This document shows, one piece after another, positions 48,130 through 52,698 of a stretch of 64,000 nt of DNA. The position numbers and the translations under genes were made by a program. The notes beneath the pieces were generated by a model. That model was not told the DNA's origin, ran no database searches, and was given only the letters and a program-made list of their open reading frames with translations. Each line of letters opens with the position of its first letter. Within the stretch, counting starts at the first letter, position 1. The stretch is from assembly GCA_964016885.1 (NCBI GenBank), contig OZ024742.1, forward strand, positions 112,654,001-112,718,000, in the 5' to 3' direction. The DNA is from Eledone cirrhosa (Eukaryota).

Positions 48130-49010
48130 TTTAATCTATATTAAACACTCCTCAAACACTCCTTCCTGCAGGTTCTGTCAGAAGCAACGCGATCCAAATG
48201 ATCGGCGTGGATCTCCATTCGAGACCAGCCAACATCGTGGATGTTATCCTACCATTTGTTCGGGGTCTAATCCTGGGTCTCCAGCCTGTTGGTCACATCT
48301 GTATAATCTGTCAACGAGTTTTTCTAAGCCATTTTAACAGAAAGTATTCGAGTTGTGATCTCTCAATTCGGAGAAGTTATGACTCTACCTGGAGTGACTT
48401 TCTGATCTCCATGCTACGTACTCTATCGAGTAACGTTACTCAAACACTCCTTCAAGGGGTTCCTATCAGAAATAACCGTATACAACTGACTCAAGCCAGA
48501 TATGCCAAGCTGGGTCCCCTGCCGGTTACTTTTGCTCGTAAAATCTGCGCAGTGATGCATTTCTGTGACATTATCACATGCTCATAGTATCGGAGCTGTG
48601 ATGCGTCAATTCCTAGACGTAGCTGTTTTAATTGGTGTGACTCTGAACTCCATGATACGCCCGCTATCGAAATACGTTACGCCAAAGACCCATTTTGGCC
48701 GCTTGTATCCGCGATCACATTCTGTCGGACATTACCCAAGTTTCATGACCATAGCTAAATATTGGAACGAACAACATATTGAAGAGTTTGGCTGTTACAC
48801 CTACATCCCTTCTTCTGATTATCGGGTGCTTCTTCTGATTAGCGAATGCTGATGTCGCATTATTGCAACAGCTTCGGCAATTCTGGCATTTAATTCAGTC
48901 TCCTAACTTGAACAAGGCTCCGAAAGAATTAAACTTATCCACCTGCGCATGCTTCCTTCATAGAAAGTTTGTCTCAGTTTTTGTAGCACTGATTTTCACT
49001 CTAGCCTTGC
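48130..49010 (-). mobile_element. Decayed RTE-like LINE 3' fragment
   Basis: Minus strand resembles RPRGRPRTKWLDNI...DR..W. Homologous to 58745-59410. Confidence 0.65.
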
Positions 49011-49594
49011 AGCACTCGAAATGAAACATTTCAATTGCTAGTTGGAGATCACTTAATCTACAATTAGAATAATGTGGTTGAGTTAATTGATTGTACATTT
49101 GAATGCTGATGCAGAACTGCCTAACTACGAATCATTGGCAGCAGCTAATTTATTCTGCTGCCACATAAATTACTCCAAATATTAATGGTTCTATATATAA
49201 GCATCTAAGCCAAATCATTATTCGAGAGGTATGTCAATTTTATATAGCTGATAACTCTATTTGTATGCTATTGATAACGCTATTTTATGGATCACAAAAG
49301 CATAAAACACGAAGTTGATCAGGGTAGGATTCATCTACTTTTATATAGAGTTAAACACGCACGGTCAGATCCCTTAAGTTCTAAACATTTTGCTAAATTT
49401 TTTCTCTACAAACATTTCAAATTTGTCATGTATAGGTGTTTTCAACCGCCTATATTAGGCGTTTAGACTTTTTAATACTTTGGATTAATATCTTTATATT
49501 TAAGTTTTTCATACTTTTTCCTTTGCATCACAATACCACGCACACACACACACACATTCACACACACATACACATACATAAGTATATATCACCT

Positions 49595-49925
49595 TCATCA
49601 CCTTGACAGAACAGTTCGTCGGGCACCATTCGGCGCCGCTGGGATCGACACGTGCTGTTTTAGCCATACGAAAACGCCATCCCACTGGCTGGGCAGGCCG
49701 TAAGTCTAAAGTCTGTCTTAAGCCAGAAGGCTCATTTGGCCGGTTCTTATCCCTGTTCCATGGCGTGAAGAGACCGAGAGTACAATACTCCCCCCTGGAC
49801 AGGACGCCAGTCCATCGCAGGGTTAAACTGGAGCAACAACACACCACCCGGTCCGAGAATTGAACACACAAACTTTCGATTGCAAGCCTACTGCTCTGAC
49901 CACTAAACCATGCGCCTTCACATAA
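49595..49925 (-). mobile_element. tRNA-derived SINE (V-domain-like body)
   Basis: A-box TGGTTTAGTGG, B-box-like GTTCAATTC, and gcgatggactggcgtcctgtccagggg. Confidence 0.8.
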
Positions 49926-49926
49926 G

Positions 49927-50276
49927 TATATATATATATATATATATATATATATATATATATATATATATATATATATATATATATATATATAAGTATA
50001 TATATATATATATATACATATAAATATATATATATATATATATATATATATATATATATATATATATATATATATATATATATATATGTATACATATATA
50101 TATATATATATATATATATATATATATATATATATATATATATGTGTATATATATATATATATATATATATATATATATATATATATATATATATATATA
50201 TATATATATATATATATATATATACATATATATATGTATATATATATATATATATATATACATATATACATATATA
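49927..50276. repeat. Long (TA)n tract at the centre of nested inversions
   Basis: Direct inspection. Confidence 0.95.
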
Positions 50277-50379
50277 CTTATGTGAAGGCGCATGGTTTAG
50301 TGGTCAGAGCAGTAGGCTTGCAATCGAAAGGTTGTGTGTTCAATTCTCGGACCGGGTGGTGTGTTGTTGCTCCAGTTTA
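50271..50379 (+). repeat. Inverted duplication of the SINE head 49824-49930
   Basis: Near-identical reverse complement across the (TA)n tract, including the flank tatacttatgtgaa. Confidence 0.9.
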
Positions 50380-50385
50380 CTCACC

Positions 50386-52698
50386 AGAAAGAAGAGTACT
50401 GCGTGGTTGCACATGGGTTACATATGATAGAAATAGTCCTTCGTCAGTGATTTTCCAACCATCATTGGTATTTCATCGCATTAAAAAATCATATACCTCA
50501 GGTTGGTGCGAGCAATAATTAAAAAAAGTTATAGTGACCAGTAAATCGCGTAAAGCTAGTGGACAAGTAAACAACATAGAAGGTTAAAAGCAAACCAAAT
50601 ATAGGAATAAACAAGCAACATGATTGTCCGGTCAGCATTAGCTGGGTGGATTTCATGAGCGAAAGGTACAGACCGTCCGACGTGAGTGAGATGTAAGCAA
50701 GAAGAGACCCACTGTAAGCCAAACGGGAGGAAATGAGAGGGGAGAAACAGAGAGTGAGTGAGTGGAAGTGCAAGGAAGCGGTCAGTCGAGAGAAAGTGTA
50801 ACTGACAGAGGGGGGCGAAAGAAGGAGAAAGAAACGGAGAGAACGGGGCAGCAGTAAGAGAGAAACAGACAAACGCAGCCGAGGTAGATATATATAAAAT
50901 ACAATGCAAGAAAGAAGACAACTGCGTGGTTGCACATGGGTTACATATGATAAACATAGTCCTTCGTCGGTGATTTTCCAACCATCATTGGTATTTCATC
51001 ACATTAAAAATCATATACCTCAGGTTGGTACGAGCAATAACTAAAACATGTTATTGGGACCAGTAAATCGCGCAAAGCGAGGGGCCCAAGTAAACAACAT
51101 AGAAGGATAAAATCAAACCAAATATAGGAAAAAAACAAGCAACATGGTTGTCCGGTCAGCATGAGCTGGGTGGATTTCATGAGCGAAAGGTACGGACCGT
51201 CCGACGTGAGTGAGATGTAAGCAAGAAGAGACCCACTGTAAGCCAAACGGGAGGAAGGCTAGAGTGAAAATCAGTGCTACAAAAACTGAGACAAACTTTC
51301 TATGAAGGAAGCATGCGCAGGTGGATAAGTTTAATTCTTTCGGAGCCTTGTTCAAGTTAGGAGACTGAATTAAATGCCAGAATTGCCGAAGCTGTTGCAA
51401 TAATGCGACATCAGCATTCGCTAATCAGAAGAAGCACCCGATAATCAGAAGAAGGGATGTAGGTGTAACAGCCAAACTCTTCAATATGTTGTTCGTTCCA
51501 ATATTTAGCTATGGTCATGAAACTTGGGTAATGTCCGACAGAATGTGATCGCGGATACAAGCGGCCAAAATGGGTCTTTGGCGTAACGTATTTCGATAGC
51601 GGGCGTATCATGGAGTTCAGAGTCACACCAATTAAAACAGCTACGTCTAGGAATTGACGCATCACAGCTCCGATACTATGAGCATGTGATAATGTCACAG
51701 AAATGCATCACTGCGCAGATTTTACGAGCAAAAGTAACCGGCAGGGGACCCAGCTTGGCATGTCTGGCTTGAGTCAGTTGTATACGGTTATTTCTGATAG
51801 GAACCCCTTGAAGGAGTGTTTGAGTAACGTTACTCGATAGAGTACGTAGCATGGAGATCAGAAAGTCACTCCAGGTAGAGTCATAACTTCTCCGAATTGA
51901 GAGATCACAACTCGAATACTTTCTGTTAAAATGGCTTAGAAAAACTCGTTGACAGATTATACAGATATGACCAACAGGCTGGAGACCCAGAGAGTGAGTG
52001 AGTGGAAGTGCGAGGAAGCGGTCAGTCGAGAGAAAGTGTAACTGACAGAGGGGGCGAAAGAAGGAGAAAGAAACGGAGAGAATGGGGTGGCAGTAAGAGA
52101 GAAACAGACAAACGCAGCCGTGGTAGATATATATAAAAAAACAACAGAAGAAAGAAGACAACTGCGTGGCTGCACATGGGTTACATATGATAAAAATAGT
52201 CCTTCGTCGGTGATTTTCCAACCATCATTGGTATTTCATCGTATTAAAAATCATATACCTCAGGTTAGTACGAGCAATAACTAAAACATGTTATTGGGAC
52301 CAGTAAATTGCGTAAAGCGTGAGGCACAAGTAAACAACATAGAAGGATAAAAGCAAACCAAAGATAGGAAAAAAACAAGCAACATGGTTGTCCGGTCAGC
52401 ATAAGCTTGGTGGATTTCATGAGCGAAAGATACAGACAGTCCGACGTGAGTGACATGTAAGCAAGAAGAGACCCACTGTAAGAAAAACGGGATGAAGTGA
52501 GAAGGGGAGAAACAGAGAGTGAGTGAGTGGAAGTGCGAGGAAGCGGTCAGTCGAGAGAAAGTGTTACTGACATAGGGGGCGAAAGAAGGAGAGAGAAACA
52601 GAAAGAACGGGGAAGCAGTAAGAGAGAAACAGACAAACGCAGCCAAGGTAAATATATATAAAAAACATGAGCAGAAAGAAGAATACTGCGTGGTTGCA
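50386..52698. mobile_element. Three tandem ~524-bp non-coding units plus a ~25-bp partial unit
   Basis: Unit starts at 50386, 50909, 52149 and 52673. Unit 2 is interrupted by 51255-51990; the array ends in (TA)n. Confidence 0.88.
51255..51990 (+). repeat. Inverted duplication of host segment 48273-49008
   Basis: Almost identical; gives identical 95-aa spurious ORFs at 48565-48852 (+) and 51411-51698 (-). Confidence 0.95.

What the first reader, a model, noticed from the sequence alone, without database searches (positions are those of the whole stretch)
48273..52698. Nested, mirror-ordered inverted host copies interleaved with a tandem element
Seen: to the right of the (TA)n tract lie, in order, an inverted copy of the proximal left flank (50271-50379 = rc 49824-49930), ~1.7 units of a 524-bp repeat, an inverted copy of a more distal left flank (51255-51990 = rc 48273-49008), and the repeat resuming almost in register. 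Junctions show microhomology (AA(G) at 51255; GGAGAcccAG versus GGAGAaacAG at 51990). Inference: one synthesis event alternated between element template and host DNA, the same signature as at 20134-20543. A general replication-repair (FoSTeS/MMBIR) origin is an alternative.
Basis: partly seen in the sequence, partly recalled or inferred. Interest (0 to 1): 0.8.

Follow-up and report, generated by a model that had tools for sequence, protein, structure and literature searches.

The report
Young fold-back copies inside older repeat
Two stretches of neighbouring DNA (103 and 736 bases) lie copied backwards beside and inside a much older jumping-repeat array next to a long TA run, which is real but likely an ordinary copying error during break repair rather than a step in how the repeat inserts.

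Summary
The structure is real. 50277-50379 is the reverse complement of 49824-49926 (1 mismatch in 103) and 51255-51990 of 48273-49008 (2 in 736). Short-read contigs of one sample show the 736-bp block at about twice flank depth. The single-synthesis retro-insertion idea fails two of its own tests. Age: the arms differ by 0.36%, the repeat units by 5.6-8.8%. No other copy examined is closer than 4.6% over a near-full unit. Unit 2 is a mosaic of units 1 and 3 whose shared parts have since diverged 4.7%, and the insert sits only in unit 2. Enrichment: 0 of 54 other loci of this ~523-bp, (TA)n-targeting, Penelope-like non-autonomous family and 0 of 72 young Penelope loci carry a locus-specific inverted flank copy of 60 bp or more at or in the element. 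Best reading: a recent microhomology-mediated template-switch event, likely starting with fold-back at the 350-bp (TA)n, pasted local DNA into an existing array. This is a known class (MMBIR templated insertion, 'local n-jump'). The scan's notes held no earlier finding with all my search words, and one related Penelope-inversion note from another genome.

The parts
48273..49008 (+). Donor block A: flank made of decayed dispersed repeats; template of the long inverted insert
   Evidence: about 2x contig depth
49009..49823 (+). Block B, 815 bp of flank that was not copied; single-copy depth
   Evidence: (laid to 49520)
49824..49926 (+). Donor block C: end of a dispersed SINE-like repeat abutting the (TA)n, including a locus-specific internal deletion junction near 49828
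49927..50276 (.). Interrupted (TA)n tract, 350 bp; likely break and fold-back site; both inverted pairs are centred in it (axes 50101.5 and 50131.5)
50277..50379 (-). C': inverted copy of C, 1 mismatch in 103
50380..50385 (.). 6-nt filler at the junction; about 11 nt of the element's usual fixed end are missing
50386..50908 (-). Unit 1 of the ~523-bp non-coding tandem repeat (RNA sense inferred on the minus strand); 3.9% from the family's column-wise commonest letters
50909..51256 (-). Unit 2, first part; shares rare variants with unit 3 in its first ~190-250 bp, then follows unit 1; ends in the AA microhomology
51255..51990 (-). A': inverted copy of A inserted into unit 2 with loss of 15 nt; 2 mismatches in 736
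51981..52148 (-). Unit 2, second part (51981-51990 is the 8/10 microhomeology); shares rare variants with unit 1
52149..52697 (-). Unit 3 and the first ~25 bp of a fourth unit (variable, likely 5'-truncated end)
52698..52744 (.). (TA)n at the variable end of the array

Best explanation
Two inverted copies of the left flank sit beside and inside an older tandem repeat array, and they were likely pasted there by one recent microhomology-mediated template-switch event during break repair or replication. Order of events: (1) a non-autonomous, Penelope-like ~523-bp element inserted into a (TA)n tract (inferred from family anatomy); (2) a local duplication made unit 2 as a mosaic of units 3 and 1 (shown by shared rare variants; timing inferred from 4.7% divergence); (3) much later the (TA)n tract likely broke or stalled a fork; the 3' end folded back in the self-complementary TA run and copied 103 nt of its own strand (C'); it joined the element end with a 6-nt filler, copied 875 nt of the array, switched at AA to its own strand 815 nt beyond the hairpin base, copied 736 nt (A'), and returned to the array at an 8/10 microhomeology, losing 15 nt. 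The junction sequences, copy number and relative ages are shown; the break, the strand used and the polymerase are inferred.
For: Arms 3/839 = 0.36% (95% CI 0.07-1.0%) versus 15/317 = 4.7% for the unit-1/unit-2 shared segment, p=1e-6; the two arm pairs do not differ from each other, p=0.33. Window units lie 3.9-5.2% from the column majority and 5.6-8.8% from each other. Mosaic unit 2: 16:7 sites follow unit 3 before position 254 and 4:15 after, p=0.002; 6 rare variants are shared by unit 2a and unit 3, 4 by unit 1 and unit 2. Small loss plus microhomology or filler at all three junctions. Donors are local only. About 2x depth. Young (98% or more, arms of 60 bp or more), apparently locus-specific inverted pairs occur in 10 of 179 surveyed 10-kb windows, none touching the focal element, so two independent events within 1 kb are unlikely. 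The pattern matches the published MMB-TI signature: inverted insertion near its template, microhomology or microhomeology, complex multi-switch events as germline variants (PMC8421209, passages), and 'local n-jumps' (PMC7025897, passages).
Against: No read or contig listed spans a junction; the fork at 49008 shows in 1 of 3 runs, and one contig runs through 48273 into the flank without a break. The runs are one sample and may be the assembly's own. The microhomology at 51255 is only 2 nt. 736 nt copied from about 2.2 kb away is far longer than the yeast fold-backs (most ~5-34 bp; PMC11724301 abstract) or the within-100-bp templates searched in PMC8421209. DNA- and RNA-templated copying of the flank would leave the same sequence. 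Surveyed loci are the best-scoring hits of a few searches (40 candidates each), not a random draw. 'Locus-specific' in the survey was judged against 1.8 Mb of fetched DNA only.
Confidence: 0.72

Rival explanations
1. A Penelope endonuclease cut the (TA)n tract in an abortive insertion, and the break was mended by fold-back copying, possibly with the Penelope reverse transcriptase copying local RNA or DNA. The order of events is as in the best explanation, but the trigger or the polymerase is element-encoded.
For: A Penelope family (RT plus GIY-YIG) with 1199-1733 candidate places and top hits at 98-100% was active over the same time span and ends in (TA)n. The copy at 20138-20543 is a locus-specific, age-matched inverted flank copy directly at a Penelope 5' end. 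Self-priming and template jumps were proposed for rotifer Penelopes (PMC3846280, passages).
Against: No young Penelope sequence lies in the structure. 0 of 72 other Penelope loci show a locus-specific flank copy; the nearest candidates (L204, L205, L198) are dispersed repeats or another Penelope family. Long (TA)n tracts break on their own (recalled).
Confidence: 0.09
2. Two separate young events: a fold-back at the (TA)n made C', and a later intramolecular template switch, guided by the C-(TA)n-C' hairpin, inserted A'.
For: The two pairs share nearly one axis (30 bp apart; skipped flank 815 bp versus copied element 875 bp), as expected if an existing hairpin aligned the second switch.
Against: The arm divergences are indistinguishable (p=0.33, low power). 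Such pairs are rare (10 of 179 windows). One event through a hairpin intermediate gives the same geometry.
Confidence: 0.08
3. One reading: during retro-insertion of the tandem element the reverse transcriptase alternated between element RNA and host DNA.
For: Both donors lie beyond the element's fixed (priming) end, and the order fits synthesis from that end. The array resumes almost in register.
Against: 13-fold age gap. No source array: best other loci 93-94% by BLAST; one exact locus-specific contig of the unit sits at single-copy depth, 7.0. The insert is in unit 2 but not in the matching part of unit 1. 0 of 54 family loci have such inserts; 44 of 54 keep the canonical fixed end that this locus has lost.
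Confidence: 0.05
4. The inverted copies are as old as the element but were kept identical by gene conversion between the arms.
For: Closely spaced inverted repeats can convert (recalled). One contig mixes the two arms' alleles, which bubble collapse also explains.
Against: Identity runs to the last base with no decayed margins. Other inverted arms decay normally: 2.5-8.7% for five pairs in this window and 3.0-12.6% for four self-inverted copies of this family. It does not explain why unit 1 lacks the insert.
Confidence: 0.03
5. Assembly or library chimera (fold-back reads at the TA run).
For: Long (TA)n and palindromes cause such artefacts (recalled). No junction-spanning contig was listed.
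Against: Block A has about twice the depth of both flanks (ratios to B 2.26, 2.23, 1.68). Contigs fork at 49008/49009 in run X2. The A' allele at 48501 is seen in run X1. The arms differ at 3 sites.
Confidence: 0.03

Closest known systems
MMBIR templated insertions (MMB-TI), classic and complex classes (PMC8421209; passages read)
   Same: Insertion that is an inverted copy of a nearby template, junction microhomology or microhomeology, return to the original template, several switches in one event, seen as germline variants.
   Different: That study searched read-sized inserts with templates within 100 bp. Here one insert is 736 bp from about 2.2 kb away, and the two inserts are nested around one (TA)n.
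Local n-jumps, copy-and-paste clusters in cancer genomes (PMC7025897; passages read)
   Same: A tight cluster of phased local breakpoints with low copy gain and inverted junctions, attributed to one copy-and-paste event.
   Different: Germline, sub-kilobase scale, in an invertebrate-like genome, landing in a retroelement array.
Fold-back inverted duplications at double-strand breaks (PMC11724301, abstract; PMC13065848, abstract and section 7; PMC3907307, search listing only)
   Same: A broken 3' end folds back on a short inverted or simple repeat and copies its own strand, and is then captured by end joining or further switches.
   Different: The fold-back seed here is a 350-bp (TA)n; the enzymes are untested.
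Penelope-like elements with tandem and inverted pseudo-LTRs, including non-autonomous head-to-tail forms (PMC8557442 and PMC3846280; passages read)
   Same: The 523-bp family has partial tandems, a fixed and a truncated end, (TA)n targets and occasional inverted self-copies.
   Different: In the passages read, the inverted part is a copy of the element itself. Here the inverted parts are flank DNA and are much younger than the element.
Non-LTR retrozymes (10.64898/2026.07.22.740005; part 1 of 5 read)
   Same: Non-coding tandem units likely mobilised by Penelope proteins.
   Different: No canonical type I hammerhead core is conserved in this family.

Membership tests
MMBIR/FoSTeS templated insertion (local n-jump) | Inserted DNA is an inverted copy of a nearby template | tested here: met
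MMBIR/FoSTeS templated insertion (local n-jump) | Copy gain: the donor is retained | tested here: met
   Both copies in the assembly; about 2x contig depth
MMBIR/FoSTeS templated insertion (local n-jump) | Microhomology, microhomeology or short filler at junctions | tested here: met
   AA; 8/10 with last 3 exact; 6-nt filler. The 2-nt match alone is weak.
MMBIR/FoSTeS templated insertion (local n-jump) | All switches arose in one event | tested here: inconclusive
   Same arm age (p=0.33) and low background rate, but no population data
MMBIR/FoSTeS templated insertion (local n-jump) | Dependence on Pol delta/Pol theta/PIF1-type repair enzymes | not testable with these tools
   Needs genetics
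Insertion-coupled retroelement template jump (TPRT) | Captured segment and element copy have the same age, with a near-identical source element | tested here: not met
   0.36% versus 4.7%; no source among the candidates scored
Insertion-coupled retroelement template jump (TPRT) | Recurs at junctions of the same family | tested here: not met
   0 of 54 loci with a locus-specific copy of 60 bp or more; one ambiguous 37-bp case (L061)
Non-autonomous Penelope-like element (the 523-bp family) | Partial tandem (pseudo-LTR) with one fixed and one variable, truncated end | tested here: met
   canonical fixed-end motif in 44 of 54 loci
Non-autonomous Penelope-like element (the 523-bp family) | Insertion bias for (TA)n | tested here: met
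   (TA)3 or more within 45 bp of the fixed end in 50 of 54 and within 30 bp of the variable end in 40 of 54; no shuffled control run
Non-autonomous Penelope-like element (the 523-bp family) | Inverted 5'-truncated self-copy at the variable end | tested here: met
   L033, L063, L070: 3 of 54 loci
Non-autonomous Penelope-like element (the 523-bp family) | 3' end shared with an autonomous RT + GIY-YIG partner | tested here: inconclusive
   No match to the window's Penelope copies in self-BLAST; partner not searched for genome-wide
Non-LTR retrozyme | Type I hammerhead ribozyme in each unit | tested here: not met
   No hammerhead family in Rfam scan; a loose core pattern matched 3 of 92 units. A non-canonical ribozyme is not excluded.

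The most novel reading that the evidence does not exclude
Long (TA)n tracts in this genome, cut by the very active Penelope endonuclease, seed hairpin-guided, iterative fold-back synthesis that grows nested, co-axial palindromes from local DNA, with the Penelope reverse transcriptase able to copy the flank itself. The two cases in this one window (20138-20543 and 50277-51990) would be products of that element-triggered mutational process, a source of new local inverted repeats genome-wide.
Probability: 0.1. Interest if true: 0.6.

Novelty: new member of a known kind. Interest (0 to 1): 0.22.

Why it matters
As it stands it is a well-resolved, datable germline example of a multi-switch templated insertion seeded at a (TA)n tract, with a built-in ordering test (the mosaic unit) showing that the inserts post-date the repeat. 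It warns that inverted flank copies at Penelope-type junctions need an age check before being read as retrotransposition intermediates. It would matter more only if Penelope proteins proved to trigger or carry out such events, since the Penelope cycle is still poorly defined (PMC8557442, passages).

Tried and rejected
Rfam scan of 47500-58000: only low-complexity hits below their gathering scores, no ribozyme. Hammerhead core pattern: 3 of 92 units, rejected. ORFs over the finding: only stop-to-stop frames in repeats, none pursued. Apparent inverted flank copies at other family loci first looked supportive (L013 = L042, 539 bp; L023 = L051, 152 bp). L042's copy proved to be a dispersed repeat (99.4% to other loci). 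L051's matches a third copy in its own window as well as the 'donor' (87.5% vs 86.8%). L061 has a 37-bp perfect inverted copy of the flank about 275 bp past the variable end, but similar sequence occurs at 94-96% in 4 other loci, so it was left as ambiguous. At Penelope loci, L205, L204, L198, L184, L102 and the direct copies L190, L186, L192 were all dispersed repeats. The 'skip 723' joint and the fillers between 51257 and 51988 in the contigs come from the family's many uninterrupted units and were not taken as an empty allele. The two RAD-seq runs laid (X4, X5; 2 of 3 offered) gave no usable cover of the junctions, so polymorphism is untested. Hairpins directly around (TA)n tracts: 5 of 695 tracts, 2 of them dispersed repeats, against 3 of 695 in direct orientation, so no clear excess. 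Only 40 of 54 further Penelope loci chosen were examined; L088 was dropped as a tandem duplicate of L087, and the long family array on C15 was left out. Six answered paper searches (plus 64 on Penelope reverse transcription) listed no report of flank-templated inverted inserts at Penelope junctions; two used 'octopus' or 'cephalopod' on my unverified guess at the kind of animal. PMC13526784 (passages) had nothing on flank-templated copies. No supplements were read.
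Full report
Setting. The window lies at G000:C3:112654001-112718000 in a 3.0-Gb assembly. It is 36% GC and full of (TA)n tracts and Penelope-type ORFs (RT and GIY-YIG). I did not identify the species.

Observation. Masked self-BLAST and base-level comparison confirm the anatomy: A (48273-49008), B (49009-49823), C (49824-49926), (TA)n (49927-50276), C' (50277-50379; 1 mismatch in 103), a 6-nt filler, 1.67 repeat units, A' (51255-51990; 2 mismatches in 736), the rest of unit 2, unit 3, a stub of a fourth unit, and (TA)n at 52698. 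Arms are identical to their last base. At A' the unit loses 15 nt between an AA overlap and an 8/10 microhomeology ending in CAG. At C' the element lacks about 11 nt of the fixed end that 44 of 54 other loci keep. A's only near-identical match among the candidates scored is A'. C is the end of a dispersed repeat whose best other matches are 93% or less over that part; C' reaches 5 nt across a deletion junction peculiar to this copy. Both donors are therefore local.

Is it real? Three runs of one sample hold the stretch; they may be the assembly's own sample. The unique contig inside A has depth 14.9, 12.8 and 7.5, against 6.58, 5.73 and 4.46 for B and 5.93 and 5.03 for the left flank; the pooled ratio to B is 2.1 by my arithmetic. 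In X2 a 37-bp contig ends exactly at 49008 and the B contig starts 30 bases before 49009, the mark of a fork at that junction; in X1 and X3 the B contigs start at 48970 and 48972, so the fork shows in 1 of 3 runs. X1 carries the A' allele at 48501. The duplication is supported; the exact junctions rest on the assembly.

The repeat. The ~523-bp unit has 2639-3416 candidate places. Copies begin at a fixed motif beside (TA)n and end at variable points after one or more units, often again in (TA)n (50 of 54 and 40 of 54); 3 of 54 carry an inverted self-copy at the variable end. This is the anatomy described for Penelope-like elements and their non-autonomous forms (PMC8557442, passages). No autonomous partner was identified and no hammerhead was found, so it works like a non-autonomous Penelope-like element without proven membership, and it is not filed as a retrozyme.

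Age. In an alignment of 92 unit pieces the window's units are 3.9-5.2% from the column majority (family median 2.3%) and 5.6-8.8% from each other. The nearest other locus is 4.6% or more away, apart from one 126-column overlap at 3.2%. Units within other arrays mostly differ by 1.4-7.9%, with two recently amplified arrays (L070, L075) at 0-1.9%. Unit 2 is a mosaic: it follows unit 3 at 16 of 23 informative sites up to position 254 and unit 1 at 15 of 19 after it (p=0.002), with 6 and 4 rare shared variants. That is the pattern of a one-unit local duplication, and the duplicated segment covers the site of A', yet only unit 2 has the insert. The segment shared by units 1 and 2 has since diverged 15/317 = 4.7%, the arms 3/839 = 0.36% (p=1e-6). 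The two arm pairs do not differ from each other (p=0.33). A young retro-copy of a divergent source array would need a more than 99% source: none appeared among 40 candidates scored in each of two searches, and one exact locus-specific contig of the unit has single-copy depth (7.0). Conversion is unlikely because other inverted arms decay normally (2.5-12.6%).

Survey. I examined 10-kb windows around 54 other loci of the family, 72 loci of the young Penelope family found at 15427-20137, and 53 random places. Inverted pairs are everywhere, but most are dispersed repeats or element self-inversions (36 of 72 Penelope loci). Pairs at 98% or more, with arms of 60 bp or more and no comparable match in the other windows, occur in 6 of 54, 3 of 72 and 1 of 53 windows; none straddles or abuts the focal element (upper 95% bounds 5.4% and 4.1%). 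L043 is a similar locus-specific inverted duplication (784 bp, 98.3%) with microsatellites at its inner ends and no element involved. The copy at 20138-20543 is locus-specific (next best 86% or less) and as old as its Penelope (1.1% versus 0.9-1.3%), so it may be insertion-coupled, but it is 1 of 73 and was picked by eye. Limits: loci are top hits, not random; donors beyond about 3.5-4.5 kb were not visible; low-copy repeats can pass as locus-specific.

Mechanism. The + strand of the product reads as synthesis that folds back in the TA run, copies its own strand leftwards (C'), joins the element end with a filler, copies 875 nt of the array, returns to its own strand 815 nt past the hairpin base (A'), and rejoins the array. 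The near-shared axis (50101.5 and 50131.5) fits a hairpin-shaped intermediate but is a post hoc match of a single pair. This is the MMBIR templated-insertion signature, including complex germline events and microhomeology (PMC8421209, passages), the 'local n-jump' class (PMC7025897, passages), and fold-back synthesis at breaks (PMC11724301, abstract; PMC13065848, abstract and section 7). That long (TA)n tracts form cruciforms and break is recalled, not from a call. Whether a Penelope endonuclease made the break, or its reverse transcriptase did part of the copying, cannot be told from the sequence; self-priming and template jumps were proposed for rotifer Penelopes (PMC3846280, passages).

Verdict. 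Observation confirmed; the retro-insertion interpretation is not supported for this locus, the replication-repair alternative is. New example of a known kind; interest 0.22. Earlier notes of the scan: none for this genome, and one on hairpin pivots in endonuclease-less Penelopes of another genome, which concerns element self-inversion and was not tested here.

Noticed in passing
window 15427-20543 with donor 13236-13614: Young Penelope (ORFs 16265-18184 and 18072-18929, minus strand; partial tandem). At its truncated end follows a locus-specific inverted copy of flank lying 1.8 kb beyond its other end, starting at the edge of another (TA)n, with a 27-bp tandem duplication at the joint. It is age-matched to the pseudo-LTRs and is the only such case in 73 loci of the family.
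   Followed up: partly
L085-L117 (young Penelope family): In 17 of 32 loci the inverted self-copy stops 40-48 nt short of the fixed end (the 'tail'), then meets (TA)n. In several (L085, L095, L107, L112) the inverted part holds sequence absent from the direct part, so it is not a fold-back copy of the first strand; this suggests priming from both target ends.
   Followed up: partly
L205:6430-6660 (oriented): The young Penelope's truncated end is joined directly to the end region of a second Penelope family, a chimeric insertion or template jump between families.
   Followed up: partly
G000:C15:29893509-29901413: Array of about 8 kb of the 523-bp family with an apparent 2144-bp (4-unit) higher-order repeat, judged from hit spacing.
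   Followed up: no
L087 and L088 (G000:C8, about 22.055-22.074 Mb): The same Penelope insertion with its flanks appears twice, about 9.4 kb apart: a recent tandem duplication or an assembly duplication.
   Followed up: no
L059:6858-9230 and L070:6490-9921 (oriented): Very young (99-100%) tandem-plus-inverted structures flanked by microsatellites; L059 has a ~310-bp unit and may be another active non-autonomous family.
   Followed up: no
window 34407-37353, 31238-31742, 31967-33058, 52783-54458: Further inverted structures. 34407-35686 belongs to a dispersed family that often shows self-inversion; 52783-54458 surrounds a GIY-YIG fragment.
   Followed up: partly
window 57088-57629 and 6471-6911: Older, solo members of the 523-bp family (about 75% and 68% to the array units).
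   Followed up: no
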